64,000 nt of DNA. Source: Patescibacteria group bacterium (lineage in GTDB: Bacteria > Patescibacteriota > Minisyncoccia > Phycocordibacterales > UBA12445). The translations under genes and the position numbers were made by a program. The stretch is taken from NCBI GenBank assembly GCA_003504275.1, contig DOAO01000014.1, positions 8,889-72,888 on the forward strand, given 5' to 3'. Positions 1,552-59,241 of the stretch are shown one piece after another; positions within the stretch are counted from its first letter, which is position 1; each line of letters starts with the position of its first letter. The notes under the pieces were generated by a model that saw only the letters and a list, made by a program, of their open reading frames with translations, searched no databases and was not told the DNA's origin.

Positions 1552-1587
1552 CTGGATTGCCACGGGCTTTCGCCCTCGCAATGACAG
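1552..1587. repeat. half copy of palindromic repeat family (ctggattgccacgggctttcgccctcgcaatgac)
   Basis: same module recurs at 3640-3681 (inverted), 40836-40923 and 51190-51327. Confidence 0.6.
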
Positions 1588-1637: not shown

Positions 1638-3620
1638 GTGGAAAATAAATTAAACGAGCTTAATGAAAGACAAAAAGAGGCGGCCCAGCATAAAGATGGG
1701 CCTCTTTTAATTATTGCAGGAGCGGGAGCGGGAAAAACAAAAACAATCGCACACAGAATCGCAAACCTCATCAAAGAAGGTGTGGAACCGAGACATATTC
1801 TCGCAGTAACATTCACAAACAAAGCAGCGAAAGAAATGGCGGACAGGGTTCGCATACTTCTACCGATAGATGGGGTAGGAGGAACACCTGTACTTTGCAC
1901 ATTCCACTCTCTCGGAGTGAGAATTCTTAAGGAAAATGCCGAAGCAATTGGCAGAAGTAAATTTTTTTCAATCTTAGACAGCGACGAATCTTTCGCCTTT
2001 TTCAAACGAGCGACAAGAGAGGTGGGAATGGACCCAAAAGAGATAAATATGAAGGGAATCTCAAACATTGTCTCTGCGAACAAAAATAAAATGATAGATA
2101 TGTCCGACTATCAGCGTGAATCCGCGCCCGGATATTTCAAGGACACCGTTTTGAAAATATGGAAAAAATACGAAGAGCTTTTAAAAGAAAATGAAGCGTA
2201 CGATTTTGACGATCTCATTTTAAAAACTGTTCATTTGCTTCAAAATAAAAAAGAGATACTAAATTATTATCAGACGCTCTGGAAATATATACATATAGAT
2301 GAGTATCAAGACACAAATACCTCACAGTACGAGCTTTCACGGTTACTCGCCGAGAAACATGGGAACATTTGCGTAGTCGGAGATAGCGACCAGTCAATAT
2401 ATGGCTGGAGATGCGCCGATTTCAGAAATATCCTTAATTTTGAACAGAATTTCCCCGGCGCCAAGACTGTGCTCCTCGAGCAAAACTACCGCTCGACAGG
2501 TAACATACTCGACTTGGCGAACAGGGTTATTCGCAAAAACAAGTTACGCAAAGAAAAAAACTTATTTACAGAAAATAAAGAGGGAGAAAAAATAACTCTC
2601 TTTGAAGCACTAGATGAAAACGATGAAGCAAACTTCGTCGTGCAAAAATGCCGTGACCTAACAACCAAGAAAGGGGTGCGACCATCGGAGATTGCTGTCT
2701 TGTATCGTGCAAACTTTCAATCACGAGCACTCGAAGAGCATTTCATTCGAGCAGGTCTACCTTACCAAGTCCTCGGCACGAGATTTTATGAGAGAAAAGA
2801 AATAAAAGATATTATTGCTTTCATAAAGTTCGCACTAAATACAAAAGACAATCTTTCTCTCGCGAGAATAATAAATGTTCCGCCTCGCGGTATCGGAAAG
2901 GTGACTCTTGAAAAAATAATTGCAGGGAAGGAAGGGGAGCTTCCCGCAGGAACTAGAGAAAAAATTAAGGACTTCAGAAATAAAGTAGAAAAAATTCGAG
3001 AAGTTTTGTTAAACAGTAAACTTTCCGAATCAATCAAACATATTGTGAAAGTGACAGGACTAGATATGTCTCTCAAGGAAGAGGGGAAAGAGGAGGGAAT
3101 GGAAAGACTTGAGAACATTAGAGAACTCGCGAACATTACGACAAAATATAATTCGCTCACAAACGAAGAGGCGATACAAAAATTCCTCGAAGACACATCA
3201 CTTATGTCAGATCAAGATGCAATAATGGACAGACAGGCGAGAGATGGAGTAAGGCTTATGACCGTCCACTCCGCAAAAGGGCTTGAATTTAAATACGTTT
3301 TTGTGACAGGGTTAGAACAAGATCTCTTCCCACACAGAGGATGGGGAGATGCCGAGGATACAGATACGGAAGAGGAGAGAAGACTATTTTATGTTGCAAT
3401 CACAAGAGCAAAAGAGAAGCTTTTCATCTCCTACGCAGCTTCCCGAATGATTTTCGGCTCAAGGCAAATGAAAATGCCTTCAGAATTCCTGGAAGATATC
3501 GACGATACAATCGCAGATGTAGAAAAAAACGAAAATAATCTCTATGAAGGGCACAGCCGTGGGGGAGGTAGCAGTTGGCAGAAGAAAGAAGATGATATTA
3601 TCTGGGACTGTTTGGTGTAA
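1638..3620 (+). CDS. ATP-dependent DNA helicase, UvrD/PcrA/Rep family
   Basis: Walker A GAGAGKT near N-terminus, DEYQDT motif II, C-terminal VTRAKEKL; 660 aa; GTG start. Confidence 0.85.
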   Translation: MENKLNELNERQKEAAQHKDGPLLIIAGAGAGKTKTIAHRIANLIKEGVEPRHILAVTFTNKAAKEMADRVRILLPIDGVGGTPVLCTFHSLGVRILKENAEAIGRSKFFSILDSDESFAFFKRATREVGMDPKEINMKGISNIVSANKNKMIDMSDYQRESAPGYFKDTVLKIWKKYEELLKENEAYDFDDLILKTVHLLQNKKEILNYYQTLWKYIHIDEYQDTNTSQYELSRLLAEKHGNICVVGDSDQSIYGWRCADFRNILNFEQNFPGAKTVLLEQNYRSTGNILDLANRVIRKNKLRKEKNLFTENKEGEKITLFEALDENDEANFVVQKCRDLTTKKGVRPSEIAVLYRANFQSRALEEHFIRAGLPYQVLGTRFYERKEIKDIIAFIKFALNTKDNLSLARIINVPPRGIGKVTLEKIIAGKEGELPAGTREKIKDFRNKVEKIREVLLNSKLSESIKHIVKVTGLDMSLKEEGKEEGMERLENIRELANITTKYNSLTNEEAIQKFLEDTSLMSDQDAIMDRQARDGVRLMTVHSAKGLEFKYVFVTGLEQDLFPHRGWGDAEDTDTEEERRLFYVAITRAKEKLFISYAASRMIFGSRQMKMPSEFLEDIDDTIADVEKNENNLYEGHSRGGGSSWQKKEDDIIWDCLV

Positions 3621-3639: not shown

Positions 3640-3681
3640 CCGTCTTTGCGAGGGGCAAAGCCCCGTGGCAACCTACCAATG
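3640..3681. repeat. inverted half copy of the palindromic repeat (ccgtctttgcgaggggcaaagccccgtggcaacc)
   Basis: reverse complement resembles 1552-1587; brackets the helicase gene. Confidence 0.55.
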
Positions 3682-3762
3682 TTGACGGTGAAACGAAGCA
3701 ATCCAGTAATCTAGCACCTCCTCTTCAATATCGAATAGAGCAGACAAGCTCCGCAAAAACAA

Positions 3763-5676: not shown

Positions 5677-5940
5677 ATGTTTATATAATAATATTCCATT
5701 GTGTTATATTCCAAATTGTCATATTTAACTACATTTTTTATTTACCCAAAATTAACTACGCTCCTAGAACAGGTAAAAAACGGGAAAGTAATCTCTTTCG
5801 ATAACGATAAAGGTGCCCTAAACCATCTCCACAAAATATCTAAGAAATAATTAACGAGTTTTTAATTTGAATTTTAAGCGATTCCTCGGTAAACTCGGAA
5901 TGACGAGAGATGAATTGGTAAAAAAGATAAAATAAAAAAC

Positions 5941-13990: not shown

Positions 13991-14665
13991 ATGAACCAAG
14001 AACCAACACTACTAGAAATTTTTAAATCGGGACCAATTGCCGCCATAGATAAAAATGGGCCTCAAAATACAGTGCACGACAAAAATAAATTAAATGATAT
14101 ATATGACAACCTTCCCGAAGATATAAAGAATGCTATTGCTTCTGTCGATTCATCTGAATCTATATATGAAATAGGCAACAAATTCAAACTACATATGGAT
14201 CAAATCGCACAACTTGGAGCAGAAACAGGATTTGTATTGCTTGGAGTCACTGATCCGATGGAATTTGTAGCAAATGTAAGCCGTGTCTTAAACATAGACA
14301 AGACACTTGCTAGCCAAATAGTGACCGACATAAATGAAAAAATATTTGTTCCCGTTAAGGAGTCGTTGAGACAAATACACTCACAAACCCCGGTTAATAA
14401 ACCTGTTTTAGCTACAACCCCAAATATCATTAAAAATGTTTCAGCCATGGAATTAAATGTTCCAAAGAAAACTGTTGATATATTAAAAGGGAATATCCCA
14501 ATAGCAGAAAAAAGGCAAAATACAGAGATACTGGGATTTAGTTCAGAAAAAAAAGATACAGACAATCTCAACATTATGGAAGAAAAGATGAATGGAAGTT
14601 TCTCTATTCCAAAGTCTGAAAATGGCATAAGCAAACAATCAGATCCATATAGAGAACAAATATAA
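13991..14665 (+). CDS. hypothetical protein
   Basis: 224-aa ORF in the cluster. Confidence 0.4.
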   Translation: MNQEPTLLEIFKSGPIAAIDKNGPQNTVHDKNKLNDIYDNLPEDIKNAIASVDSSESIYEIGNKFKLHMDQIAQLGAETGFVLLGVTDPMEFVANVSRVLNIDKTLASQIVTDINEKIFVPVKESLRQIHSQTPVNKPVLATTPNIIKNVSAMELNVPKKTVDILKGNIPIAEKRQNTEILGFSSEKKDTDNLNIMEEKMNGSFSIPKSENGISKQSDPYREQI

Positions 14666-14688: not shown

Positions 14689-14777
14689 GTCATTGCGAGA
14701 TTTGAAAATTTTAAAAAAGAAGATCAATCTCTTTTTTAGGAGGTTGAGCTTCCAAAATTTTAAAATCTCGCAATAAC
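14689..14777. repeat. 89-bp palindromic element, TIR GTCATTGCGAG (copy A1)
   Basis: near-identical copies at 15253-15341 and 34962-35050. Confidence 0.8.
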
Positions 14778-14813
14778 AAAAAGAGGAGGGTAAAAATTCA
14801 TTATTCTTATAAA

Positions 14814-15233
14814 ATGCAATTCCAAGTACCACAATTTATTGAAATAGAAGATAAGGTCATAGGACCGTTTACTTTTAGACAATTCCTTTTTCTTTTAGGA
14901 GCGGGAGGAGGAAGTTTCGCCATATACAGAATTATTCCAGCTCCATTTTCATACCTCCTTATCGCCCCCGTTGCAGGACTGGGCCTGGCCCTCGCTTTCT
15001 ATAAAGTAAATAATCGTCCCTTCACAACAATGGTTGAGTCATGGTTCAAATTCAGTCTTGGAAATAAAAGATATTTATGGAAAAAAGAAGCCACAACAAT
15101 AAAAAAAGAGGCTATGGAAATAGAAGGAATGATAAACAAAACAACTATTCCAAAACCGATAGTACCCAAGTTGACCGCCGGTAAATTAAAAGATATTGCA
15201 TGGAGTTTAGATATTAAGGAAAAGATTAAGTAG
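14814..15233 (+). CDS. small two-TM membrane protein (VirB3-like candidate)
   Basis: 139 aa, two hydrophobic helices; bracketed by two copies of the 89-bp element. Confidence 0.4.
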   Translation: MQFQVPQFIEIEDKVIGPFTFRQFLFLLGAGGGSFAIYRIIPAPFSYLLIAPVAGLGLALAFYKVNNRPFTTMVESWFKFSLGNKRYLWKKEATTIKKEAMEIEGMINKTTIPKPIVPKLTAGKLKDIAWSLDIKEKIK

Positions 15234-15252
15234 GAATTAAGATAAAGGACTC

Positions 15253-15341
15253 GTTGTTGCGAGATTTGAAAATTTTAAAAAAGAAGCTCAACCTCTTTTT
15301 TAGAAGGTTGAGCTTCCAAAATTTTCAAATCTCGCAATGAC
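15253..15341. repeat. 89-bp palindromic element (copy A2)
   Basis: gttgttgcgagatttgaaaatttt...ctcgcaatgac. Confidence 0.8.
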
Positions 15342-22080: not shown

Positions 22081-22143
22081 TTTTAGAAAGAATTAAGAGT
22101 TATGAATAAAGAATTAAGCCCACTCAAAAAAATAACAACTTTT

Positions 22144-22479: not shown

Positions 22480-22566
22480 TATATTTAAAGAATAGAATAA
22501 AAAAGAAAAAATTACGAATTAAGCATTCGTAATTTTTATTATTTTTAAAAAATCATTTAGACAGGA

Positions 22567-22701
22567 TTAGACAGTCAATTTACTCCTACCTTTTCTTCTT
22601 CTTCTTTGGACAACTTTCTTGCCCCCAGGAGTTCCTTGTCTAACCAAAAAACCGTGTGTTTTGGCTCTCTTTCTCTTTTTAGGATTATATGTCTTTGACA
22701 T
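22567..22701 (-). CDS. rpmH: 50S ribosomal protein L34
   Basis: 44-aa ORF absent from the track (<60 aa); translates to [44 protein letters not shown], a clear L34. Confidence 0.85.
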
Positions 22702-22832
22702 TCCTCGATATTATCTTGTTTTTATTAAAAATGCAAGTAAATGTCTTTATCAAAAGACATTTACGCCGTCCCGTAGGAAATTTCTAATCAAAAACAAACA
22801 AAGAAAGAACTGGGCCGTTAGACCGTCTACAG

Positions 22833-22933
22833 GTGTCTGCCTATATTTGGCAGACCTGTCTACAAGCCTGCCTGTCCGGTAGGCAGGTGCCGATGTTAAT
22901 CCCCATCGGCTGTCGATGTAAGTTCCATCGACC
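22833..22933. repeat. repeat module C (ccgtctacaggtgtctgcc...cctgtccggtaggcaggtg...catcgac)
   Basis: related copies inside 51190-51327, 31684-31772 and 43735-43790. Confidence 0.6.
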
Positions 22934-22939
22934 GCTATC

Positions 22940-23331
22940 GTGAAAAACAATAAAAATAACCAAAATAATTTATTCGAATTTTCCTACAGGGACAAGAGAT
23001 TTACCTTTTTTCACAATTTTTCTCTTATTTCACTGGGATTTACCTCGCTAAATTAAAGGTGGTAAATAAAAAATAAAAATCAGACAACCTTTCTTCCTAT
23101 TATTTTAATATATAATAAAATCTTTCCTATAAAAAAATCTATTTTTATCGTTCAAAACACAAATAATAAACAAATAAACAATTTAAGAAGAAGCGTCAAT
23201 AATAAAGTAAACAAAGAAGAAAAACTTCCTCTAAAGTTATCCACACATAATCCACCTATTATAAACAAAAAAGTCTAGTTCCATTTTCAAAGTCCAGGCA
23301 TATAATTATCTTTGTAGGATCTAAATTAAAC
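22940..23331. promoter_or_regulatory. oriC candidate (AT-rich DUE plus DnaA boxes) upstream of dnaA
   Basis: perfect DnaA box TTATCCACA at 23237-23245, near-box TAATCCACC at 23248-23256, long AT-rich tract 23040-23230. Confidence 0.6.
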
Positions 23332-30792: not shown

Positions 30793-30820
30793 GTTAGGTG
30801 TTGATTATAAAATTTTTTAG

Positions 30821-30859
30821 CAACAAAAAACGCTCTAAAAATTAGAGCGTTTTTTGTTG
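30821..30859. terminator. bidirectional intrinsic terminator
   Basis: caacaaaaaacgctctaa-aaat-tagagcgttttttgttg extended palindrome with A-run and T-run. Confidence 0.7.
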
Positions 30860-30867
30860 CTAATCTT

Positions 30868-31053
30868 TTATATACCGTCACTCCCAACCCCAAGGTCTAG
30901 TCCAAGCACGGCTTCTGGATTGAAATCGTCATCGCTTCCGACAATCCCATCGAGGGCGTCTTCGCTAAGAGCGGTATCCATATCCTCATCAAAGCTTTCG
31001 TAAATTTCTGTGGACTCACCTTCTTCTTTTTGTGGTTTTTTTAGTTTAGGCAT
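30868..31053 (-). CDS. small acidic hypothetical protein
   Basis: 61-aa ORF upstream of ruvC. Confidence 0.3.
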   Translation of the reverse strand: MPKLKKPQKEEGESTEIYESFDEDMDTALSEDALDGIVGSDDDFNPEAVLGLDLGVGSDGI

Positions 31054-31151: not shown

Positions 31152-31688
31152 TTATTTGCCCACCGTTTGCCTTTCTATAGCAAGACAGGTTATCGCTACC
31201 GCACAGGCATCAAACTCATCATCCTCCATCTTTTTTTTCTCCCCCTTACTGAAGTTTTTGATAAGCAAAGGGACCATTTTTGAAACTTGATTTTTATCTG
31301 CTTTACCGTATCCCACAATGGCCATCTTTACTTGAAGCGGTGTATATTCATGGGTGTTCAGTCCGTTATTTTTGGCTATATATGTGGCTACGCCCTTTAT
31401 TTCAGATACTCCCATAGCTGTTTTCTGGTTTGTTGTAAAAAAAAGTTTTTCAATTGCCAGTGTATCTGGTTTATATTTTTTAATAATTCTATCAAACTCA
31501 GAACCTATTATGAACATTCTTTCAGAGAGGGGGAGTTTGGCTGAAGATCTTAGACAGTCGGAAAAAATTAGTTCATCAAAACCACCCCTTTTTTCTAGGA
31601 TGGCGACACCGAATTTATCATAGCCTGGGTCGACACCGATTACTTTCATAAAAGATGATTTAAGATTAATTCTTTGATTTTTCGTCAT
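31152..31688 (-). CDS. ruvC: crossover junction endodeoxyribonuclease RuvC
   Basis: N-terminal VIGVDPGYDKFGVAIL RNase H-fold motif. Confidence 0.8.
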   Translation of the reverse strand: MTKNQRINLKSSFMKVIGVDPGYDKFGVAILEKRGGFDELIFSDCLRSSAKLPLSERMFIIGSEFDRIIKKYKPDTLAIEKLFFTTNQKTAMGVSEIKGVATYIAKNNGLNTHEYTPLQVKMAIVGYGKADKNQVSKMVPLLIKNFSKGEKKKMEDDEFDACAVAITCLAIERQTVGK

Positions 31689-31772
31689 TGCGAGAGTAAC
31701 AATAACGAGAGGGATTGCTTCGTTCCACCGTCTACGGGTGTCGACGTTAATCTCCGTCGACCTCGCAATGAT
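31684..31772. repeat. palindromic element with GTCATTGCGAG TIRs carrying module C
   Basis: gtcattgcgagagtaac...ccgtctacgggtgtcgacgttaatctccgtcgacctcgcaatgatgac. Confidence 0.7.
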
Positions 31773-34584: not shown

Positions 34585-34961
34585 TTTTTTTCTTTTATGC
34601 TAACCTTGTTTTCATCCGACGATATTTGTTTACAAAGACAGTCTTACGTGTTATCAATTGTCTTTGGCAATAATAATATAATTTATTTATTTTTGCCTTG
34701 TTTGTTGATAAATCTATTCGGATAAAGATAGAGAATTTGGCTCTCTAAGCAATAAAACTTACGGGTTTAAATGGTTTTTTACGGAGGACGCTCTGGTCTT
34801 CACCTTAGAGTGAAATCGCTGGAACTATCCTACAAAAAAATCTAACTTTTGATGCATCATCAAAAGAATTGCTTAGAGAATCAAATGCTCTATACATAAC
34901 TGCTTAGTTTACACTGGGCAGTTATTTTTTTATTTTCCTTTTAAAGAACTAAACCCTCTCC

Positions 34962-35050
34962 GTCATTGCGAGATTTAAAAATTTTGGAAGCTCAACCTCC
35001 TAAAAAAGAGGTTGAGCTTCTTTTTTAAAATTTTCAAATCTCGCAATGAC
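34962..35050. repeat. 89-bp palindromic element (copy A3, inner hairpin flipped)
   Basis: gtcattgcgagatttaaaaattttggaagctcaacctcc...ctcgcaatgac. Confidence 0.8.
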
Positions 35051-40835: not shown

Positions 40836-40923
40836 GTCATTGCGAGCCGAAGGTGTGGCAATCCAGATTTTGTTCCGTATTATTTCCTGGATTGCCACGG
40901 TCTAAAGACCTCGCAATGACAGC
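40836..40923. repeat. full palindromic element (TIR GTCATTGCGAG, inner ctggattgccac modules)
   Basis: gtcattgcgagccgaaggtgtggcaatccag...cctggattgccacggtctaaagacctcgcaatgacagc. Confidence 0.75.
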
Positions 40924-43604: not shown

Positions 43605-43993
43605 AATAACTATTTATTTAACAAAAAACTACCATTTATCTGAATGAAAGTAAAGATAAAAAAATTTGGACATGGAACGTCCAAATTGATAAAGAAGGTT
43701 ACTTATTCTGTTGCAAGGAATCTTTAGTCGCCGAGATATAGGCGACACCTGTAGACGGGCTACGCGAACAGTATCCCGATTGGAGGAATCTTCGCCTACG
43801 TTTAGAAAAGACAGGAATCGGTCACAAATCACTAAGCTTTTTATTTCGCTATGCTCATAAAAATCAAAGTGTTCGCGACCCCGCCTCAGCTCCCATTCTT
43901 GCAGAATGGGTCCCACTTCCAGCTTTCGATTCCTGCTGGGCGCTACAAAACAAAAAACACCCAAATGCTTTCGCATTTGAGGTGTTTGTTTTG

Positions 43994-44066
43994 TGCGCCC
44001 AGCAGGAATCGAACCTGCGACCATTTGCTTAAAAGGCAACTGCTCTACCAGCTGAGCTATGGGCGC
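43994..44066 (-). tRNA. tRNA-Lys (anticodon TTT)
   Basis: reverse complement GCGCCCATAGCTCAGCTGGTAGAGCAGTTGCCTTTTAAGCAAATGGTCGCAGGTTCGATTCCTGCTGGGCGCA; anticodon loop CTTTTAA; no encoded CCA. Confidence 0.85.
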
Positions 44067-45786: not shown

Positions 45787-45944
45787 CTCCTTTTTAACCC
45801 AAATTTATTTATATTCTGTTTTAATGACAAGGAACTGTATCTATTTTATCCTACTTGGCTATACGGCGTTGTCAAACCCCCACTACAATTAAGCCAATTT
45901 TCTGTATACAGAAAATTGGCTTAATTGTAGTAGTGGGGAGGGGT

Positions 45945-46898: not shown

Positions 46899-47840
46899 TT
46901 ATTTTTTTAGCGCCTGATGTGTTTCACAGAAGTGCGCACTCCTGCCTCCGACTTTAGTGCGAAGGATGACACCTTTGCATCCTTTCTTTTTACATACCTT
47001 GCCCGTTTGCCTATATACGAGATGGCAATTTTGATATTTACCCCTTTCTCCTTCTATGTTTCTAAAGTCAGACATTGAATCTCCTCCCATCTTTATGGAC
47101 CTATCGAGAATATTTCTTGTAGCTTTAAAAATATTTTTGAAATCTTGCTCCGAAATGTTTTTCAGACGTTCTTTTGGATTTATTCCAGATTGCCAAAGTA
47201 TCTCGTCGGAGTAGATATTGCCGATGCCGGAAATTATTTCTTGCGTCATAAGTATCTGTTTTATCGCTCCATCTTTTTTCTTCATCAGAGCCTTTTTAAA
47301 ATCCGTGAAACTAAAATTTTCTTTCATTGGGTCGGGGCCGAGGTGTTTAAGGTCTTTTGATTCAAATTCTTTTCCTTTATCAAGGAGAACAACTTTTCCA
47401 AATTTTCTCACATCAGAAAAAGCGAGTTCGTAACCGTTAGAAAGATAAAAAATAATATGTAGAAATTTGTTATATGGATCAGAAAGGGGAGTACCTTCTT
47501 TTATGGGTTTCCAAATTAATTTATTATTTTCTTTTTCTTGTTTCCACTTTCCGTACAGAAGATGCCCTGTCATTTTCATATGGAAAAGAAGAGTTTTGTT
47601 TCCTGAAAGATGAGTTAAAACATTTTTGCCGACTCTCTCTGATTTTAATATTTTTTTTCCGATAACTTCTTTTTTGAATTGTTTGTAATACTCAGGATTT
47701 TTTAATGATCTAATATCTTGCTTACGCAGACCAGTCTGTCTGCCGGTAGGCAGATCGGTCCAAACGTCTTTTATGGTAAGACCTTTTACTTTTTTATTTA
47801 ATCCAAAAACAATAGTTGTTACCTCTGGTAACTCAGGCAT
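46899..47840 (-). CDS. formamidopyrimidine-DNA glycosylase / endonuclease VIII family
   Basis: N-terminal MPELPEV catalytic Pro, H2TH region, C-terminal zinc finger CKKKGCKG...CETHQ. Confidence 0.75.
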   Translation of the reverse strand: MPELPEVTTIVFGLNKKVKGLTIKDVWTDLPTGRQTGLRKQDIRSLKNPEYYKQFKKEVIGKKILKSERVGKNVLTHLSGNKTLLFHMKMTGHLLYGKWKQEKENNKLIWKPIKEGTPLSDPYNKFLHIIFYLSNGYELAFSDVRKFGKVVLLDKGKEFESKDLKHLGPDPMKENFSFTDFKKALMKKKDGAIKQILMTQEIISGIGNIYSDEILWQSGINPKERLKNISEQDFKNIFKATRNILDRSIKMGGDSMSDFRNIEGERGKYQNCHLVYRQTGKVCKKKGCKGVILRTKVGGRSAHFCETHQALKK

Positions 47841-47883
47841 GGTAGTTTCAAAAACGATTTAAGATTTATAATTTATTCTTTCG

Positions 47884-47924
47884 TCATTGCGAGGTCGACG
47901 GAATAGTCGTCGACCTCGCAATGA
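47884..47924. repeat. minimal palindromic element with the family TIR
   Basis: gtcattgcgaggtcgacggaatagtcgtcgacctcgcaatgac. Confidence 0.75.
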
Positions 47925-47950
47925 CGGCAAACCCAAAGAGATGGCTAATT

Positions 47951-49909: not shown

Positions 49910-50074
49910 TTGAAAAAGAATTATGAATTAAGAATTATGAGTTAAGAATACCAAAGCTAGGCTAATATTGCGAGTGGTTACAAAGTCTTGCTTTTTTAGA
50001 TATATTGATGTAGTATTTATCTCGCAGTAAATTTTTGGCGTAATTCTTTATTCATAATTCATTATTCTTAAAGT

Positions 50075-51189: not shown

Positions 51190-51327
51190 GTCTTTGCGAG
51201 TGAAACTAAGCCGTCTACAGGTCTGCCTGTCCGGTAGGCAGGTGTCGATGTGAATTCCATCGACCAACCCAGAGACCACTTCAAGTAAATCCTGGATTGC
51301 CACGGGCTTCGCCCTCGCAAAGACGGT
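51190..51327. repeat. composite palindromic element (TIR GTCTTTGCGAG...CTCGCAAAGAC enclosing module C and the ctggattgccacggg module)
   Basis: gtctttgcgagtgaaactaagccgtctacaggtctgcctgtccggtaggcaggtgtcgatgtgaattccatcgac...cctggattgccacgggcttcgccctcgcaaagacgg. Confidence 0.75.
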
Positions 51328-52177: not shown

Positions 52178-52267
52178 GGAAGGGTGGCAGAGCGGTCGAT
52201 TGCACCAGTCTTGAAAACTGGAGTCTCCGCAAGGGGACCGTGAGTTCGAATCTCACCCCTTCCGCCA
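52178..52267 (+). tRNA. tRNA-Ser (anticodon TGA), CCA encoded
   Basis: GGAAGGGTGGCAGAGCGGTCGATTGCACCAGTCTTGAAAACTGGAGTCTCCGCAAGGGGACCGTGAGTTCGAATCTCACCCCTTCCGCCA; long variable arm, perfect acceptor. Confidence 0.9.
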
Positions 52268-52356
52268 AGACAATTTATTATCGGAGTCAACTCATTTGTC
52301 TATGACGAATGTGCGACCCGAGTGCCTAAGTTGGACGAGTTTAACCTATCATTAAT

Positions 52357-53025
52357 ATGAATTCCAGAATTCGTGAAGCAATATATAGCATAGGCGAAAG
52401 ACTAACAACAGATAGTTCATATTCAAAATATGATGATTTGGAATGTAATTTATCTGAGGGCATTATTCCAAGAGGATTAATGTATGAAGAGGATAATCGA
52501 AATGTTGATGCAGTAGGATGTGTTATGGTTGGCCTTAACCCAGGCAAGGCAACTAAAAAAGAGCAAGATTTTTTTAAATCCGAACCACTTTCTTACGAAA
52601 GATTTTTGTTGTATTGGAAAGAAAACGTACTTCAACATCCTTACTACAAACGACTTAGAAAACTTGCTGATGAGCTAGAGTTCGACGGTCCTATCCTATG
52701 GACTGAACTTGTGAAATGCCAAGGCAAAGAAAATGGACAATTGACCGTGCAGACAATTAGAGATGATATCAATAAATATCTTTTTCCCGAGTTAGAGAAT
52801 ATTCCTGCTAATTGGCCATTATTCGGAATTGGCAACCAAGCTTTTGAAATATTGAGTTATCGTTTCCCCGATAGATTAGTTTTAGGAATTCCGCATCCGA
52901 CAGGGTCATATGGACTATTTCCAAAATTATTTGAAGGTCAAAAAATAAGACAGGATATTTTTAACCATACCAAGAAGATTTTAACATCTAAAGAAAAAAT
53001 TGCCGTAAAATTAGGTAAGTTTTAA
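52357..53025 (+). CDS. hypothetical protein with faint UDG-superfamily-like motifs
   Basis: GLNPGKATKKEQ (resembles UDG motif A GxxPGxxE) and GIPHPTGSYG (resembles motif B HPSP) at appropriate spacing. Confidence 0.3.
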   Translation: MNSRIREAIYSIGERLTTDSSYSKYDDLECNLSEGIIPRGLMYEEDNRNVDAVGCVMVGLNPGKATKKEQDFFKSEPLSYERFLLYWKENVLQHPYYKRLRKLADELEFDGPILWTELVKCQGKENGQLTVQTIRDDINKYLFPELENIPANWPLFGIGNQAFEILSYRFPDRLVLGIPHPTGSYGLFPKLFEGQKIRQDIFNHTKKILTSKEKIAVKLGKF

Positions 53026-53076
53026 TTAGTATCGCTATAAAAATAATAAATAAAAACGACAACTTTGCTGTTGTTT

Positions 53077-54075
53077 TTATTTTGTCCAAAGAACCTCGTA
53101 TTTAAACCCTACATGTTTTTCAGATTCCTGTCTTCTGTCTTCTGGTACCGACACTACAATTCTTTTATCTCCTGCAAACGGCTCAGCATGCAGGTTGCAT
53201 AGATAAACCATCAATAGTTCAAAAATTGTTAACAAACTTAGAGTTGTTGATTCCATAAAGACAGCAATCTGCATTTTAGATAGATTATATTCCTTACCCT
53301 TGTACGATATGGAGGGTAGATCAATGTTGTTCGTAAGATTTAATTTATAATTTTCTACCGTAAAAACATCGTCCCGCAATTCACCGTATGGATGTTCTAT
53401 TTTGTTTCGTATTGTGCGAGTTTTTTCCGTAAATTTTTTAAATGTTTGAATGAAAATAGTAAAAGGATCATCATCGCCCAATTCGGTTTTGATTGTTTTA
53501 CACAAAAGTTCTTCCCACCCTTTCCCTTTAACGTCTGGATAAAATAAGTTGGTAATTTCCATGATTGATCTCATTGCATGATCGGTATTTGAGATGAACC
53601 CCTTTACCTTTTGTTCCAAGTTTGGAAGCGCTGGTATTTGAAGACTCTTTCCTTGCGAAGAGATACTAGAGGTTATGCTTTCTTCTTCAGCTATATATTC
53701 GTCCTTTAGTTTATCTAGCGCAGTAATTTCTCTCAAGAAAGAAAGTGAAATACTTATGCCTTTATTATGATCTACACTTTTGGGTAGGGTATGTTCTTTA
53801 AATAGAAAACTAGCTTGTTGAAATGTTCTGCCAACAAATTCATTATCCGAACCATATGGAAGTATGTGCTGTACATTGTGGTCTATATTTGGGTTTGTTC
53901 TCTGTGGGTCAACTGAATCAGCCATTAAAACCATGCGGATATTCTTTCTGGTAATACACATAAGTTGGTCATCTACTCCCACAAGAGCAGATAAGTTGTC
54001 GCCAACTTCTGATCCAACATTAAAAGCACCCCCTTGGGAACGGTATGCAAATGGATCGTTATTACCTGAGTTCAT
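53077..54075 (-). CDS. hypothetical protein (island cargo)
   Basis: 332-aa ORF co-oriented downstream of the recombinase. Confidence 0.4.
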   Translation of the reverse strand: MNSGNNDPFAYRSQGGAFNVGSEVGDNLSALVGVDDQLMCITRKNIRMVLMADSVDPQRTNPNIDHNVQHILPYGSDNEFVGRTFQQASFLFKEHTLPKSVDHNKGISISLSFLREITALDKLKDEYIAEEESITSSISSQGKSLQIPALPNLEQKVKGFISNTDHAMRSIMEITNLFYPDVKGKGWEELLCKTIKTELGDDDPFTIFIQTFKKFTEKTRTIRNKIEHPYGELRDDVFTVENYKLNLTNNIDLPSISYKGKEYNLSKMQIAVFMESTTLSLLTIFELLMVYLCNLHAEPFAGDKRIVVSVPEDRRQESEKHVGFKYEVLWTK

Positions 54076-54099
54076 AAACTTATTATAACAATTTTTTAT

Positions 54100-55422
54100 C
54101 TAATCCATGAAGGTTAATCCTTTATCTTTGTAAATTATTCTCGATCTTAGATTCGCCAGTAATTCTCTTTTTTCGCCAACCGTACCCTCTTTGAGGATAT
54201 ACTTGGCGAAATTTCTTATATCAGTATCCTGATTGTTTTTAATCTTTTCTGTTGCACCAAGCACTGATCTTTGGAAGATGTTAAATCTCGCAATTTCATC
54301 CTCCAGTTTCTGTCTCATACCCAACTCATTGATATTTACCTTGTCCAATATCTTGAGTAGTTCAGTTATCAAATCTTCTTCGCGTATATAATGATTCTTG
54401 CAGTTTCTATCTCTCGCTCTGCTACATGAATAGTAGATGTATTTAGCGTGCGTTCCATCCTTGAGCTGTTTCCACTTTTCCTCGGCAGATATTCCGCTTC
54501 CACAATATCCGCAAGTAAATAATTTAGTAAATGCGAATTCTCTATTTTCTCTTTGTATATTATCTCGTTTCAGTTGCGCCTGAGCTTTTTCAAATAGTTC
54601 TTGTGTAATTAATGGCTCGTGTTTCCCTTGATACCAATTACCGCTACCTTTCGGTGATTCAAATGTTCCGTAGTAAAAATGGCTTTCCAGTATCCGATAC
54701 ACACCAGCAAGTGTTAGTGGTTTGTTTCCTCTTGTGTAAAAATTGGCTTCAAATCGAAGCCAATTGTATATCTTTCTACCACTTAGTTTTTCGTATGCCA
54801 CTTTTTCAAATATCTTTTTAATCACTGGCGCTCTTTGCGGATCAACTATTACTTGGCATTTCTTATCCATGTGTTTTTGATTCAGGTATCCAAGCGGTGC
54901 TACGCCCGGCCATAATCCCATTTCAACTCTCGTTCGTAGTCCACGCTTCACGTTTACACCCCTGTTATCATTCTCAAGTTTTGCTTGTGATCCGAGAATC
55001 ATCAGCAAGAATTTTTCGTTTGGATTGTTTGAAAACTTTTGACCGAATGTTCTTATTTCTTGGAGAAGTCCTGCATCCATTAAGTCCACGATCTTGCCGA
55101 GGTCACCAGCATTTCTACTGATACGATCGGGTGCCCATGTGAGAATAGCGTTATACTTTTTGGCTCGTATTTCATCTACAATTTCGTTAAAGACTGGTCT
55201 TTGCCCAGTTTCCTTAGCTGAATGACTTTCTCGCTTCATACAAACTACCTCTAAACATTCTCGCTCGGCAAGCTGAAGCATCTCTTTTATCTGCGAATCT
55301 ATGGAAAGTATCTGTCTTTCCTCGGATTCTGTTGATTTACGGGCATATAGGCAATACCTGACTTTGACCGCTTGAGGCTGTATTTGGGGCACCTCATAAC
55401 CTTTTGGGGCTGTTATTTTCAT
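54100..55422 (-). CDS. large serine recombinase (resolvase/integrase family)
   Basis: N-terminal resolvase motif YARKSTESEERQILSIDSQ (catalytic Ser), recombinase domain, Cys-rich zinc ribbon (CGYCGS...CSRARDRNC). Confidence 0.8.
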   Translation of the reverse strand: MKITAPKGYEVPQIQPQAVKVRYCLYARKSTESEERQILSIDSQIKEMLQLAERECLEVVCMKRESHSAKETGQRPVFNEIVDEIRAKKYNAILTWAPDRISRNAGDLGKIVDLMDAGLLQEIRTFGQKFSNNPNEKFLLMILGSQAKLENDNRGVNVKRGLRTRVEMGLWPGVAPLGYLNQKHMDKKCQVIVDPQRAPVIKKIFEKVAYEKLSGRKIYNWLRFEANFYTRGNKPLTLAGVYRILESHFYYGTFESPKGSGNWYQGKHEPLITQELFEKAQAQLKRDNIQRENREFAFTKLFTCGYCGSGISAEEKWKQLKDGTHAKYIYYSCSRARDRNCKNHYIREEDLITELLKILDKVNINELGMRQKLEDEIARFNIFQRSVLGATEKIKNNQDTDIRNFAKYILKEGTVGEKRELLANLRSRIIYKDKGLTFMD

Positions 55423-55532
55423 ATATCTAATGAATGACGCAACTCGCCTCAGGAGTCCAGAGCGTCCCGAGTAGATAAGCTGTAGATAAGTAAATTACCC
55501 ATATTATACGGCTTAAGCTACTATACAGACCT

Positions 55533-57278
55533 ATGAAAACCTATGAACATTTGACATTATATTTGGAGTCTGATAGACTTGTATTAAACAATATGAGAAA
55601 AGACATACAAGAAAAACTAAAAGGAATGCTGGAGTTACTCTCTATCGGTCAGGTAGCAGAGATTTTTAGCATTCACCAAGACACTTTAAGAAACTGGGAG
55701 AAAGACGGCACCCTCGTTCCCCTTAGAGTTGGCCCACGCAAAGATCGCAAATATCGTCCGCAAGATATTCAAGCGATCGTGGACAAAATGGGTAGCAAAT
55801 TAACCCTGCCCCAACTTGAAGCTTTCCTTTGGAAGAGTGCAGATATTCTTCGAGGGAAAATTGATAGTTCGGATTATAAAAAATATATCTTCGGTCTTTT
55901 GTTTTATAAACGAATGAGTGATGTGTGGGATGAAGAATACGAATCAGTAATGAAAGGATATAACGATAAGATAATCGCTGGCGCCGACTATAATCACCGT
56001 TTTCAAGTTCCAAAGGATTGCAAATGGGCAGTTGTTACTGAACAAGCAGAAAGTATCGGTCAAAAGTTAAATGATATTTTTGAAAAACTCGCCAATGCCA
56101 ATAGTCCAAAGTTGGACAGAATCTTTGATGATCTTGATTTTTCAAATAGAGATCGTTTTCCAAATGAAACACTCCAAAGACTTATTAACCACTTTTCTCA
56201 ATATAATTTTGGTAATACCTATATCAGCTCCGATCTCTTGGGTGATGCTTACGAATATCTCATCAAACAATTCGCGGCAGATGCAGGGAAAAAAGGTGGG
56301 GAGTTCTACACGCCTCGTGAAGTTGAAAAAGTTATTATCGGAATTTTAAAACCCCACCAGAAAGATCATATATATGATCCAACTGCTGGATCAGGGGGCT
56401 TCCTGCTTGAAGCATATGATTACTTAAAACATAAATCTGGTGAAAAGATTGCCAAAACACTCTATCTTTATGGGCAAGAATTAAATATCAGTACTTTTGC
56501 CATCGCAAAAATTAATATGTTTTTACATGGTCTTGATAGTGCTGACATTCGCCGTGGCGACACACTCGCTAATCCGCAGTTTCTAACACAAAATGGCAAT
56601 CTACAAACATTCGACATCGCGGTCGCAAATCCTCCCTACTCAATTAAAGATTGGGAGTCAGAAATTTTCAGAACAAACAAATATGGACGACTTGAGGGAT
56701 ACGATATGCCTCCTGAAAAAAATGCGGATTACGCTTTTGTTTTGCATATCATTAAATCAATGAACGTAAACGGCAGGGCTGGTATTGTACTTCCTCATGG
56801 GGTTCTATTCCGAGGCGGTGCTGAGGGGCGTATTCGTGAGCAGATTCTTAAAAACGATCTTATTGAAGCCGTTATCGCTTTGCCAGCTAAACTTTTCTAT
56901 GGCACAGGCATTCCAGCCGCGGTTTTGATTCTTAATAAAAATAAACCAGAAAATAAGAAAAATAAGGTTTTGATTATTGATGCTGAGAAAGACTTCCTTG
57001 AGGGTAAAAATCAAAACTCTCTTAGGTCACAGGATATAAATAAAATTGTAAAAGCATATGATGTTTATTCTGATATCGAAAAATATGCACGGGTAGTTGA
57101 TATAAAAGAAATTACTGAGAATAACTATGATTTAAATATTAATCGATACATTGACACTTCTGAACAGGAAGAGGTAATCGATGTTAAATCTGCGTGGGAT
57201 GATTTAAAGAAACTAGAAAAAGAGCGTGAGACAATAAATAAAAAAGTCGACGGATTTCTTAAGGAATTAAATTATTAA
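55533..57278 (+). CDS. hsdM: type I restriction-modification N6-adenine DNA methyltransferase HsdM with N-terminal MerR/excisionase-like HTH extension
   Basis: HsdM_N pattern LEAFLWKSADILRGKID from residue ~86, SAM motif DPTAGSGGFL, catalytic NPPYS; residues 1-85 form an HTH (IGQVAEIFSIHQDTLRNWEKDGTL). Confidence 0.85.
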   Translation: MKTYEHLTLYLESDRLVLNNMRKDIQEKLKGMLELLSIGQVAEIFSIHQDTLRNWEKDGTLVPLRVGPRKDRKYRPQDIQAIVDKMGSKLTLPQLEAFLWKSADILRGKIDSSDYKKYIFGLLFYKRMSDVWDEEYESVMKGYNDKIIAGADYNHRFQVPKDCKWAVVTEQAESIGQKLNDIFEKLANANSPKLDRIFDDLDFSNRDRFPNETLQRLINHFSQYNFGNTYISSDLLGDAYEYLIKQFAADAGKKGGEFYTPREVEKVIIGILKPHQKDHIYDPTAGSGGFLLEAYDYLKHKSGEKIAKTLYLYGQELNISTFAIAKINMFLHGLDSADIRRGDTLANPQFLTQNGNLQTFDIAVANPPYSIKDWESEIFRTNKYGRLEGYDMPPEKNADYAFVLHIIKSMNVNGRAGIVLPHGVLFRGGAEGRIREQILKNDLIEAVIALPAKLFYGTGIPAAVLILNKNKPENKKNKVLIIDAEKDFLEGKNQNSLRSQDINKIVKAYDVYSDIEKYARVVDIKEITENNYDLNINRYIDTSEQEEVIDVKSAWDDLKKLEKERETINKKVDGFLKELNY

Positions 57279-57279
57279 T

Positions 57280-59240: not shown

Positions 59241-59241
59241 T

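What the first reader, a model, noticed from the sequence alone, without database searches (positions are those of the whole stretch)
14689..15341. Modular family of palindromic intergenic elements sharing the TIR GTCATTGCGAG/CTCGCAATGAC (at least 10 copies in 64 kb)
Seen in sequence: three near-identical 89-bp perfect palindromes sit at 14689-14777, 15253-15341 and 34962-35050, the third with its inner hairpin flipped. The same 11-bp termini also enclose different inner modules at 31684-31772, 40836-40923, 47884-47924 and 51190-51327 (the last with the variant GTCTTTGCGAG). Half copies lie at 1552-1587 and 3640-3681. The inner modules are themselves a recombining set (ctggattgccacggg...; ccgtctacaggtgtc...cctgtccggtaggcagg...catcgac), with free copies at 22833-22933 and 43735-43790. 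All copies are intergenic and often sit beside terminators. This looks like a MITE/REP-like mobile palindrome family with shuffled cargo hairpins. It is not a CRISPR array.
Basis: seen in the sequence. Interest (0 to 1): 0.65.

Follow-up and report, generated by a model that had tools for sequence, protein, structure and literature searches.

The report
Widespread REP-type palindromic repeat family
The window, from a groundwater Paceibacterota (candidate phyla radiation, CPR) bacterium, carries nine copies of a small non-coding palindromic repeat related to the known 'CGTC-tagged' REP repeats; the same end sequences turn up in at least eleven bacterial phyla and on viral contigs, and what spreads it is unknown.

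Summary
GTCATTGCGAG, allowing one mismatch, occurs 17 times against 0.5 expected. It marks seven two-ended elements and two single units, all 12-47 nt after a stop codon.

The 11-mer is not a transposon end. It is the 5' half of a roughly 35-nt REP-like unit: YGTC-ATTGC-GAG-[small hairpin]-GNNGCAAT-CCAG. Most elements are head-to-head pairs of such units. Some are chimeras with other GC-rich hairpins, or with a terminator-like hairpin.

The tag and the ends match the CGTC-tagged REPs of Di Nocera et al. 2013, most closely CGTC-3. The unit itself differs and is not one of their four families.

Orthologous spacers in five related genomes are empty (3-15 bp) or hold other CGTC-type dimers, so the elements come and go. 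No target duplication and no linked transposase was found.

Verdict: a new member of a known kind. It is most likely a non-autonomous element mobilised in trans as single-stranded DNA; that mechanism is inferred, not shown.

The parts
1552..1587 (-). Single REP-like unit. On the minus strand it reads CTGTCATTGCGAG-GGCGAAAGCCC-GTGGCAATCCAG.
   Evidence: As ssDNA it folds into an ATTGC/GCAAT stem plus a GGGC/GCCC mini-hairpin. It starts 47 nt after the stop of ORF 1238-1504, next to the terminator-like hairpin at 1506-1545.
3641..3675 (+). Single unit, variant tag: CGTCTTTGCGAG-GGGCAAAGCCCC-GTGGCAACC. A further partial ...CGAAGCAATCCAG follows at about 3690-3705.
   Evidence: It starts 21 nt after the stop of the UvrD-like ORF 1638-3620.
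5880..5905 (.). Degenerate small palindrome of a sister subtype, GATTCCTCGG-TAAA-CTCGGAATGACG. Compare TGTCATTCCTCGGCAAGCTCGGAATGACA in relative L252.
   Evidence: It is intergenic, and its predicted fold is weak.
14689..14777 (-). AT-rich subtype, copy 1. Outer GTCATTGCGAG stem, an AT-rich stem extension, and a degenerate GAAGMTCAAYCTC hairpin.
   Evidence: -23 kcal/mol, z -6.4. It starts 23 nt after the stop of ORF 13991-14665.
15253..15341 (-). AT-rich subtype, copy 2. Its inner hairpin plus T-run is terminator-like on the minus strand (15317-15282).
   Evidence: (z -8.9). It starts 19 nt after the stop of the PrgI-family ORF 14814-15233.
34962..35050 (+). AT-rich subtype, copy 3. It is the reverse complement of copies 1 and 2. 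Terminator-like on the plus strand (34986-35021 plus TTTTTT), antisense to pilB and ruvB.
   Evidence: (z -12.4). It lies 12 nt after the PilB stop. It is absent from the same spacer in L252 and L254-L257.
31684..31772 (.). Chimeric element: left terminus, an AT-rich filler, then GGGATTGCTTCG, the CCGTCTACGGGT module, the GTCGACG...CGTCGAC hairpin and the right terminus (CTCGCAATGAT).
   Evidence: z -4.2. It sits in the YebC|RuvC spacer, 14 nt after the YebC stop. That spacer is 7 bp and empty in L254 and L255, and holds other CGTC-type dimers in L252 and L257.
40836..40920 (.). Canonical head-to-head dimer: GTCATTGCGAG-CCGAAGGT-GTGGCAATCCAG-loop-CTGGATTGCCAC-GGTCTAAAGAC-CTCGCAATGAC.
   Evidence: four-way fold, -25.4 kcal/mol, z -7.8. 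It lies 12 nt after the PolA stop. The PolA|HolA spacer is 3 bp in L255 and 18 bp in L257.
47883..47925 (.). Minimal element: the two termini enclose only one GTCGACG-GAATAGT-CGTCGAC hairpin.
   Evidence: perfect 20-bp stem, z -11. Its spacer is 110 bp here and 15 bp in L257.
51190..51324 (.). Composite element: variant termini (GTCTTTGCGAG), the CCGTCTACAGGT module, two GC-rich hairpins and an intact right-hand unit.
   Evidence: z -3.7. An 80%-identical composite lies in another genome (L243 7889-7978).
31651..31683 (-). AT-rich tail (…AATCTTAAATCRTYTTT) between an element and the next start codon. It is shared with 47850-47882 and with the CGTC-3-like dimer of L257.
   Evidence: (repeat D12, 82% over 44 nt). 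Whether it belongs to the mobile unit is an inference.
47850..47882 (-). Second copy of the AT-rich tail, beside element 47883-47925.
   Evidence: (D12).
22833..22933 (+). Cluster of four GC-rich 7-9-bp-stem hairpins, headed by CCGTCTACAGGT. It has no GTCATTGCGAG terminus and lies upstream of dnaA.
   Evidence: D10; z -6.6.
43735..43790 (-). Module-only copy: CCGTCTACAGGT plus a GTCGCC...GGCGAC hairpin, read on the minus strand.
   Evidence: The fold is weak (z -1.5).

Best explanation
These are copies of a non-coding, non-autonomous REP-type repeat family.

**The unit.** The building block is a roughly 35-nt unit: YGTC tag, ATTGC, GAG, a small variable hairpin (commonly C-GNA-G, as in GCGAAGC), GNNGCAAT, then CCAG. 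Two units in head-to-head orientation form the usual 65-95-nt element. This resembles a REPIN or the 'HH dimer' of Di Nocera et al. It can fold either as one long hairpin or as a four-way structure.

**In this genome.** The family has diversified into a canonical dimer, single units, a minimal form and chimeras. In the chimeras, one unit is replaced by other GC-rich hairpins or by an AT-rich stem carrying a terminator-like hairpin.

**Shown.**
- The family is strongly non-random in the window.
- The elements sit 12-47 nt 3' of stop codons.
- They are present or absent at orthologous spacers in close relatives.
- The same termini and architecture occur across many phyla and on viral contigs.

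**Inferred.**
- Copies are made in trans by an enzyme that recognises the folded single strand and the YGTC tag. An HUH/Y1 (RAYT- or IS200-like) transposase is the leading candidate, by analogy with GTAG-tagged REPs.
- Insertions survive only in short spacers just after genes.
- Once inserted they act on transcripts as 3' hairpins. The AT-rich subtype may act as a strand-specific terminator.

The confidence given applies to the identification as a REP-type, trans-dependent repeat family related to the CGTC superfamily. I put the specific HUH/ssDNA mechanism at about 0.35.
For: - **Enrichment.** 17 matches against 0.5 expected.
- **Architecture.**
  - The base before the 11-mer is C in 63% and T in 34% of 368 termini.
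  - The inner motif is GAAGCAATC (394), GCGGCAATC (78) or GTGGCAATC (59) among 547 units.
  - Local hairpins with stems of 5 bp or more occur in 44 of 237 distinct segments, against 4.8 expected from shuffles.
  - Loops are dominated by GAA, GCA, GGA and GTA, that is GNA, plus AAA.
- **Folding.** Dimers fold far better than shuffles, z -3.7 to -12.4.
- **Breadth.** My estimate of the chance expectation for the genome scan is about 2. Taxa span Alpha-, Beta- and Gammaproteobacteria, Bacteroidota, Chloroflexota, Patescibacteria, Planctomycetota, Cyanobacteria, Desulfobacterota, Moduliflexus, Zixibacteria, Margulisbacteria and a Clostridiaceae MAG. It is also on alphaproteobacterial megaplasmids, unannotated.
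- **Turnover.**
  - YebC|RuvC is 7 bp in L254 and L255. The window has this family there, L252 a CGTC-1-like dimer, and L257 a CGTC-3-like dimer.
  - PolA|HolA is 3 bp in L255 against 150 bp here.
  - MurC-like|Fpg is 15 bp in L257 against 110 bp here.
- **Dispersal.** Contigs of another metagenome share only the elements (92-97% identity), not their flanks.
- **Core-genome restriction.** There are no copies in the genomic island of at least 22 kb, nor in the first 8 kb of the source contig.
- **Literature.** CGTC-tagged REPs have the same tag, an AT-starting stem, a CCA tail and HH dimers, and no dedicated transposase is known (PMC3733652).
- **Lineage.** It does encode Y1 transposases: L256 3022-3735, PF01797 at 30.8 bits.
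Against: - No transposase is linked to the elements.
  - None lies in the window or in 19 kb of additional contig.
  - No recurrent neighbour gene appears over 240 loci. The largest cluster covers 18 loci, and the genes sampled between elements are ordinary phage or housekeeping genes.
Its gene is flanked by a different palindrome.
  - The Y1 gene of relative L256 is likewise flanked by an unrelated palindrome.
- No excision or insertion event was observed directly. Filled and empty sites differ by more than the element, so exact junctions and any target motif could not be defined.
- The commonest single unit is not a significantly stable hairpin under standard DNA parameters (-2.7 kcal/mol, z about 0). 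CGTC-1 and CGTC-3 units are (z about -4.2 and -4.4). The special stability of GNA mini-hairpins rests on my own knowledge and is not modelled by the tool.
- Three different families in one spacer could reflect a hot spot, or conversion of one old insertion, rather than three independent insertions.
Confidence: 0.72

Rival explanations
1. These are host-selected transcript elements rather than mobile DNA. They would act as 3' hairpins that stabilise or terminate mRNAs, kept for that function and spread only by ordinary recombination.
For: - All nine window copies lie 12-47 nt after a stop codon.
- Across 100 elements in contigs of 55% GC or less, the median stop-to-element distance is 48 nt, and divergent spacers are under-represented, 5 of 75 against 52 of 381 in the background.
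- The AT-rich subtype has a hairpin plus T-run.
- REPs are reported to lie mainly downstream of genes (PMC3733652).
Against: - RNA function does not require the same 11-mer and 9-mer in eleven or more phyla with 33-73% GC.
- GC-rich copies have no T-run.
- The strong terminator side of the AT-rich copies faces antisense to the local operon in the two copies the scan flagged, 15253-15341 and 34962-35050.
- Orthologous spacers work with 3-15 bp and no element.
- No Rfam family matches above noise.
Confidence: 0.1
2. They are recognition or landing sites for a site-specific recombinase, or for another mobile element. The analogy is Neisseria dRS3 (a CGTC-1 REP) and the REPs targeted by IS110-family elements. 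On this reading they are maintained because other elements use them.
For: - CGTC-1 equals dRS3 according to PMC3733652. The dRS3 and IS110 targeting behaviour is from my own knowledge.
- One spacer (YebC|RuvC) holds three different CGTC-type dimers in relatives, which suggests a hot spot.
Against: - No IS, prophage junction or recombinase abuts any of the nine copies. The only recombinase, 54100-55422, lies in an island with no copies.
- Being a target explains persistence. It does not explain how copies multiply.
Confidence: 0.1
3. They are classical MITEs: deletion derivatives of a DDE-transposase insertion sequence whose terminal inverted repeats are GTCATTGCGAG.
For: The termini are inverted, and the sizes are 43-135 bp.
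Against: - No target-site duplication flanks any copy.
- Single units exist, with a conserved second motif, GCAATCC.
- Termini 300-3000 bp apart enclose ordinary genes, with no transposase.
- The palindrome extends into a YGTC tag, as in REPs.
Confidence: 0.04
4. They are an artefact: a segmental duplication, an assembly chimera or chance.
For: None beyond the fact that copies 1 and 2 lie only 564 bp apart.
Against: - Flanks are unrelated.
- The copies are identical in 8 independent assemblies.
- 0 of 100 shuffles reach the observed count.
Confidence: 0.01

Closest known systems
CGTC-tagged REPs, especially family CGTC-3 (Di Nocera, De Gregorio & Rocco 2013, BMC Genomics 14:522; PMC3733652)
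   Same: - 5' CGTC or TGTC tag.
- The stem starts with AT; in fact the same ATTGC...GCAAT ends.
- CCA(G) tail.
- Predominantly head-to-head dimers, often heterodimers.
- Extragenic, downstream of genes.
- Found in several phyla, including Bradyrhizobium and Micavibrio.
- No flanking transposase.
- CGTC-1-like and CGTC-3-like dimers occupy the same spacers in this bacterium's relatives.
   Different: - CGTC-3 is a continuous 9-bp stem with a 5-nt loop (ATTGCCGGG-CTCGA-CCCGGCAAT, deduced from the peptide VIAGLDPAIH). It is a stable hairpin on its own (z -4.4).
- Here the middle is GAG-[variable mini-hairpin]-GNN, and the commonest single unit is not stable by itself (z about 0).
- None of the peptides or sequences available for their four families matches GTCATTGCGAG. 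Their Figure 2 could not be read.
- They list 5 phyla, without Patescibacteria, Chloroflexota, Planctomycetota or Cyanobacteria for CGTC.
REPINs and GTAG-tagged REPs mobilised by RAYT tyrosine (HUH/Y1) transposases (Nunvar 2010, PMC2817692; Bertels & Rainey 2011, PMC3116915)
   Same: - Short imperfect palindromic units with a conserved 5' tetranucleotide.
- Inverted pairs as the replicating form.
- High copy number and intergenic location.
- No target-site duplication.
- Confined to the core genome.
   Different: - The tag is CGTC, not GTAG.
- No RAYT flanked by these units was found.
- The sequence is shared between phyla. As I understand the RAYT literature, REPIN-RAYT systems are lineage-specific and vertically inherited.
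Neisseria dRS3 and Rickettsia RPE-4/RPE-6 repeats (CGTC-1 and CGTC-4 in the 2013 classification)
   Same: The same superfamily tag and the same small-hairpin design. Relatives of this bacterium carry ATTCCCGC...GCGGGAAT dimers that are indistinguishable in design from dRS3.
   Different: The stem sequence differs. RPEs often sit in frame inside genes. Here only one doubtful intragenic module was seen (47717-47774).
E. coli BIMEs (mosaics of REP units)
   Same: Mosaic combination of palindromic units with other short motifs between genes.
   Different: The sequence and tag are unrelated. The protein partners known for BIMEs (own knowledge) were not tested here.

Membership tests
CGTC-tagged REP superfamily (Di Nocera 2013) | An unpaired CGTC tag (variants TGTC and CCTC) at the 5' end of the unit | tested here: met
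   C 63% and T 34% immediately before GTC in 368 termini. Window copies read CGTC or TGTC, except at two degenerate ends.
CGTC-tagged REP superfamily (Di Nocera 2013) | The stem begins with complementary A and T residues, and the unit ends in a short CCA-like tail | tested here: met
   ATTGC...GCAAT followed by CC(A/T)(G) in 531 of 547 units. Window examples are 40855-40866, 1552-1563 and 51292-51303.
CGTC-tagged REP superfamily (Di Nocera 2013) | The unit is a self-contained hairpin with an 8-9-bp stem and a 4-5-nt loop | tested here: not met
   The unit has a 5-bp outer stem, an internal loop and a variable mini-hairpin. The commonest unit folds at -2.7 kcal/mol with z about 0, against z -4.2 and -4.4 for CGTC-1 and CGTC-3 units.
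CGTC-tagged REP superfamily (Di Nocera 2013) | Mostly head-to-head dimers, with few tail-to-tail or head-to-tail | tested here: met
   Seven of nine window copies are two-ended with tags outward. The same holds in all collection hits, although that sample was selected by the search pattern.
CGTC-tagged REP superfamily (Di Nocera 2013) | Identity with one of the four published families, CGTC-1 to CGTC-4 | tested here: inconclusive
   The text and supplements give no match to ATTGCGAG. Peptides deduced for CGTC-1, -2, -3 and -4 differ. Figure 2, which holds the consensus sequences, is not held.
REP/REPIN-RAYT system | A cognate RAYT (Y1 transposase) gene in the genome, flanked by the same REPs | tested here: inconclusive
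   None lies in about 83 kb of the 102-kb source contig. None lies next to elements in 2.16 Mb of loci. The rest of the genome is not available.
REP/REPIN-RAYT system | A GTAG-type 5' tetranucleotide | tested here: not met
   The tag is YGTC.
REP/REPIN-RAYT system | Many dispersed extragenic copies, with insertion polymorphism between relatives | tested here: met
   Nine copies in about 50 kb of core sequence. Empty and filled orthologous spacers are seen.
MITE (DDE-transposon derivative) | Target-site duplication flanking the terminal inverted repeats | tested here: not met
   No direct repeat flanks any copy.
MITE (DDE-transposon derivative) | A parent IS with the same terminal inverted repeats | tested here: not met
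   Termini 300-3000 bp apart enclose ordinary genes.
CRISPR array | Regularly spaced direct repeats separated by unique spacers | tested here: not met
   The copies are inverted pairs scattered over 50 kb.
Intrinsic (Rho-independent) terminator | A GC-rich hairpin followed directly by a T-run | tested here: inconclusive
   Met by the inner hairpin of the AT-rich subtype (15317-15282 minus strand; 34986-35021 plus strand). Not met by the other six copies.
Any Rfam RNA family | A covariance-model match at the gathering score | tested here: not met
   Only three tRNAs reach gathering score in the window. Low-scoring generic hairpin (miRNA-precursor) matches appear at relaxed thresholds.

The most novel reading that the evidence does not exclude
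The GTCATTGCGAG...GCAATCC element may be one of the most widely distributed sequence-conserved non-coding elements in bacteria. It occurs in at least eleven phyla, on viral contigs and on megaplasmids. On this reading it is propagated by a still unidentified, horizontally spreading enzyme, or recognised by a near-universal host factor. That factor would read a folded single strand carrying a YGTC tag and a GNA mini-hairpin. This would be a REP system that breaks the 'lineage-specific, vertically inherited' rule of REPIN-RAYT pairs. The roughly 1-Mb genomes of Paceibacterota would be the easiest place to find the enzyme by co-occurrence.
Probability: 0.25. Interest if true: 0.7.

Novelty: new member of a known kind. 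Interest (0 to 1): 0.4.

Why it matters
- **An open question becomes testable.** REP-type repeats are a known class, and Di Nocera et al. (2013) already defined a CGTC-tagged superfamily with no known transposase. This family adds a differently built unit with the same tag and ends. It reaches Patescibacteria and several other phyla not listed for CGTC repeats, and it shows turnover between close relatives. Very small genomes could now be used to ask what mobilises CGTC-type REPs.
- **Annotation.** These GC-rich hairpins are unannotated in the public records I checked. From my own recollection, not tested here, they give rise to spurious short ORFs.
- **Assembly.** They are also a likely source of assembly breaks and misjoins in metagenomes (inference, not tested).

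Tried and rejected
- **Literature by sequence.** Searches for the DNA termini, for GGATTGCTTCG, and for peptides that the repeat would encode returned only primers and unrelated papers. Searching REP terms together with CPR terms found nothing relevant. The RepRanger paper does not mention the motif.
- **Rfam.** No match at gathering or relaxed thresholds.
- **Neighbour-gene clustering over 240 loci.** No recurrent family. ORFs between close termini are portal proteins, a GTA holin, NuoD and HTH proteins.
- **Y1 transposases.**
It belongs to a different REP type.
  - The Y1_Tnp gene in relative L256 is flanked by ATGAGYGAGGTTSAACCTCRCTCAT, which is absent from the window.
- **G·T versus A·C mismatch asymmetry in local hairpins.** This was meant to identify the folded strand. 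Only 6 informative cases were found, too few to use.
- **The inner module CCGTCTACAGGTGTC in viral contigs.** 18 hits, no more than I estimate by chance for a 15-mer, so there is no evidence that this module is widespread.
- **Lineage-specific AT-rich subtype in metagenomes.** Only two contigs of one sample carry it.
- **Rejected ideas.** CRISPR, segmental duplication, MITE, and the idea that the termini flank a cargo gene. The PrgI gene between copies 1 and 2 is an ordinary member of a type-IV-secretion-like operon.
Full report

Yes. GTCATTGCGAG with at most one mismatch occurs 17 times on both strands of the 64-kb window. Dinucleotide-preserving shuffles give 0.50 +/- 0.66, and none of 100 reach 17.

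Reading the sites gives seven two-ended elements: 14689-14777, 15253-15341, 31684-31772, 34962-35050, 40836-40920, 47883-47925 and 51190-51324. The last carries the GTCTTTGCGAG variant. There are two one-ended copies, at 1552-1587 and 3641-3675.

Two of the one-mismatch hits need comment.
- The hit at 21997 lies inside the YidC-like ORF and looks like chance.
- The hit at 5894 belongs to a degenerate small palindrome of a sister subtype. It resembles one in a relative.

Repeat finding shows that the copies share only the element itself, not their flanks. The two copies around the PrgI-family gene are identical in eight independent assemblies of the Rifle groundwater project PRJNA268031. So they are neither an assembly artefact nor a segmental duplication.

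- The 89-bp copies are not perfect palindromes. Two termini are degenerate, and ungapped self-complementarity is about 60%.
- The 'flipped inner hairpin' of the third copy is simply the whole element in the other orientation. It is 95.5% identical to the reverse complement of copies 1 and 2.

**2. Anatomy**

The 11-mer is not a free-standing terminal repeat. I scanned public collections for the exact pair GTCATTGCGAG-N40-70-CTCGCAATGAC. Both scans stopped at their limit of 120 contigs: viral contigs and one-genome-per-species GTDB contigs. My estimate of the chance expectation for the genome scan is about 2.

The retrieved elements come from DNA of 33-73% GC and share one architecture:

YGTC-ATTGC-GAG / variable segment / G(A|C|T)(A|G)GCAATC-C(A)(G) / variable loop / mirror image

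Numbers behind this:
- The base before GTC is C in 63% and T in 34% of 368 termini.
- The inner motif is GAAGCAATC in 394 of 547 units, GCGGCAATC in 78 and GTGGCAATC in 59.
- The variable segment forms a local hairpin far more often than shuffles. Stems of 5 bp or more occur in 44 of 237 distinct segments, against 4.8 expected.
- Its loops are mostly GAA, GCA, GGA and GTA, that is GNA, or AAA.
- The two arms often carry different local hairpins and different inner-motif alleles.

So the element is a head-to-head pair of two roughly 35-nt units, not a simple palindrome.

The window copy 40836-40920 is a textbook example. It folds as outer stem, two side hairpins and inner stem (-25.4 kcal/mol, z -7.8). 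The two 'half copies' are single units.

The other window copies are derivatives:
- 47883-47925 keeps only the outer stems around one hairpin.
- 31684-31772 and 51190-51324 keep one unit. The other is replaced by a CCGTCTACRGGT module plus 7-bp-stem GC-rich hairpins. The same modules occur without termini at 22833-22933 and 43735-43790.
- The three AT-rich copies keep the outer 11-mer. Inside they have an AT-rich stem and a 13-bp hairpin with a T-run.

A related composite (80% identity) and AT-rich copies (92-97%) lie in two contigs of another metagenome that share nothing else with the window.

**3. Context**

The window comes from a Paceibacterota (Parcubacteria, CPR) genome of 36% GC. Every one of the nine copies starts 12-47 nt after the stop codon of the upstream gene. 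Those genes include UvrD-like, PrgI, YebC, PilB, PolA and a Mur ligase.

I then looked at 100 elements from collection contigs of 55% GC or less.
- 56 lie between co-directional genes, 14 between convergent genes and 5 between divergent genes.
- The background for spacers longer than 20 bp is 279, 50 and 52.
- The median distance from stop codon to element is 48 nt.

No copy lies in the genomic island that starts at tRNA-Ser. That island carries a serine recombinase, a type I restriction-modification system and, beyond the window, a putative CBASS (SAVED and SMODS domains). No copy lies in the first 8 kb of the source contig either.

The terminator scan flags only the inner hairpin of the AT-rich subtype. 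In the two flagged copies, the strong side faces antisense to the surrounding operon. The GC-rich copies have no T-run.

**4. Do they move?**

The PolA-TsaE-PilB-RuvB-YebC-RuvC block is syntenic in five relatives whose PilB is 78-91% identical. Orthologous spacers differ as follows.

| Spacer | Window | Relatives |
|---|---|---|
| YebC\|RuvC | 98 bp, with 31684-31772 | 7 bp and empty in L254 and L255; CGTC-1-like dimer (CGTCATTCCCGCGGAGGCGGGAATCTA...) in L252; CGTC-3-like dimer (TGTCATTCCGGGCTCGACTCGGAATCCA...) in L257; a degenerate remnant in L256 |
| PolA\|HolA | 150 bp, with the canonical dimer | 3 bp in L255; 18 bp in L257 |
| MurC-like\|Fpg | 110 bp | 15 bp in L257 |
| PilB\|RuvB | AT-rich copy present | no copy in any relative |
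| DnaN\|next gene | 4 bp | CGTC-1-like dimer in L252 |

None of the relatives' 14-22-kb loci contains GTCATTGCGAG at all. So elements are gained and lost on the time scale that separates close relatives, and different families of the same design replace each other.

What is not shown is an actual event with exact junctions. Filled sites differ from empty ones by more than the element. No target duplication or target motif could be defined. An AT-rich tail (…AATCTTAAATCRTYTTT) next to three elements may travel with them (repeat D12).

**5. What is it, and how does it work?**

The design is the one defined for 'CGTC-tagged REPs' by Di Nocera, De Gregorio and Rocco (2013; PMC3733652). It has a conserved 5' tetranucleotide, a stem starting with AT, a CCA tail, head-to-head dimers that are often heterodimers, a position downstream of genes, occurrence in several phyla and no flanking transposase.

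Their CGTC-3 family even shares the ends. From the peptide VIAGLDPAIH in their Additional file 3, I deduce CGTC-ATTGCCGGG-CTCGA-CCCGGCAAT-CCA.

The present unit differs in the middle. Unlike CGTC-1 and CGTC-3 units (z -4.2 and -4.4), the commonest unit is not a stable hairpin on its own with standard DNA parameters (z about 0). Those parameters do not include the unusual stability of d(GCGNAGC) mini-hairpins. That stability is something I know from the work of Hirao and of Yoshizawa in the 1990s, and I could not test it here.

I therefore treat it as a relative of that superfamily, not as a member of one of the four published families. Their consensus figure is not available to me.

The most likely mechanism is copying in trans as folded single-stranded DNA by an HUH/Y1 transposase that cuts at the tag, followed by survival only in short post-gene spacers. 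This is by analogy with GTAG-tagged REPs and RAYTs (PMC2817692, PMC3116915). It is inference.

The search for a partner enzyme was negative.
- No transposase lies in about 83 kb of the source contig.
- No recurrent neighbour gene appears over 240 loci.
- One weak Y1 hit in 2.16 Mb belongs to another REP type.
- A Y1 gene in relative L256 is flanked by an unrelated palindrome.

This matches the 2013 statement that CGTC REPs lack a dedicated transposase. It leaves the question open.

**6. Rivals**

- **A purely RNA-level role.** 3' hairpins or terminators fit the positions. They cannot explain identical 11-mers and 9-mers across phyla, or why relatives manage with 3-15-bp spacers.
- **A role as landing sites for other elements.** This is plausible for persistence. 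dRS3 equals CGTC-1, and its use as a target is my own knowledge. It does not explain multiplication, and no junction was seen.
- **MITE.** The absence of target duplications and of a parent IS argues against it, as do the single units.
- **CRISPR, duplication and artefact.** All are excluded.

**7. Novelty and score**

The kind (REP or REPIN-like repeats, CGTC superfamily) is known. This family, its occurrence in CPR bacteria and on viral contigs, and the turnover between relatives are not described in the searchable literature.

The phylum-crossing sequence identity is the surprising part. As I understand it, REPIN-RAYT systems are lineage-specific. This could make the long-standing question of what mobilises CGTC repeats testable in very small genomes.

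I rate it a new member of a known kind, with interest 0.4.

Caveats:
- Some assignments rest on metagenome bins.
- The Helicobacter canis prophage match covers only half a unit.

Noticed in passing
window 34722-34894 (minus strand); L252 3978-4150, L254 7580-7751, L255 7642-7815, L256 11754-11928, L257 11838-12011: A block of about 170 nt between pilB and ruvB is almost invariant in six related genomes, while the DNA around it is not. It folds as a long rod (63 pairs, 4 with compensatory changes, G-U pairs on the gene-sense strand). No Rfam match appears even at E up to 10. It is a candidate structured RNA, possibly 6S-like.
   Followed up: partly
window 52178-64000, continuing in L277 to about 20570: A genomic island lies next to tRNA-Ser (52178-52267). 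It carries a large serine recombinase (54100-55422), type I restriction-modification genes (55533-62861), a SEC-C-motif protein and, beyond the window, two DNA methylases and a putative CBASS pair (SAVED and SMODS domains). It contains no copy of the repeat.
   Followed up: partly
L256 3011-3758: A relative carries a Y1 (IS200-like) transposase gene (PF01797, 30.8 bits) beside tRNA-Lys. The palindrome ATGAGYGAGGTTSAACCTCRCTCAT flanks it, and a third copy sits in frame inside the gene (peptide MSEVEPHS). This looks like a REPtron of a different repeat family. The core GAGGTTSAACCTC also follows the AT-rich elements in L242 and L243.
   Followed up: partly
window 22088-22120 and 50037-50069; L252 13162-13186 and 13571-13640: An AT-rich motif (AAGAATTAAGAGTTATGAATAAAGAATTAAG) occurs as an inverted pair 28 kb apart in the window. 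It resembles the two flanks of a PF05635 ('23S rRNA intervening-sequence protein') gene that is inserted between dnaN and dnaA in relative L252 but is absent here.
   Followed up: no
window 43925-43943 versus tRNA-Lys 43993-44066: An inverted partial copy of the 3' end of tRNA-Lys (TTCGATTCCTGCTGGGCGC) lies about 50 nt from the tRNA gene, inside a GC-rich stretch (43863-43953). It may be a remnant of an integration site or a tRNA-derived fragment.
   Followed up: no
window 47717-47774, inside ORF 46899-47840 (minus strand): A GC-rich hairpin resembling one of the repeat's inner modules (GTCTGCCGGTAGGCAGA) lies in frame near the 5' end of the Fpg/Nei gene (peptide DLPTGRQTGL). The Pfam N-terminal domain spans 150 residues against a 117-position profile, which suggests an insertion.
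   Followed up: no
window 22480-23331: The four-hairpin cluster at 22833-22933 lies in the rnpA-dnaA intergenic region, immediately upstream of dnaA. That makes it a candidate replication-origin region (my inference). DnaA boxes were not examined.
   Followed up: no
window 30806-30874 and 45877-45936: Two long near-perfect palindromes unrelated to the repeat family. The first is a 20-bp-stem bidirectional terminator-like hairpin. The second has 30-nt arms with no spacer.
   Followed up: no
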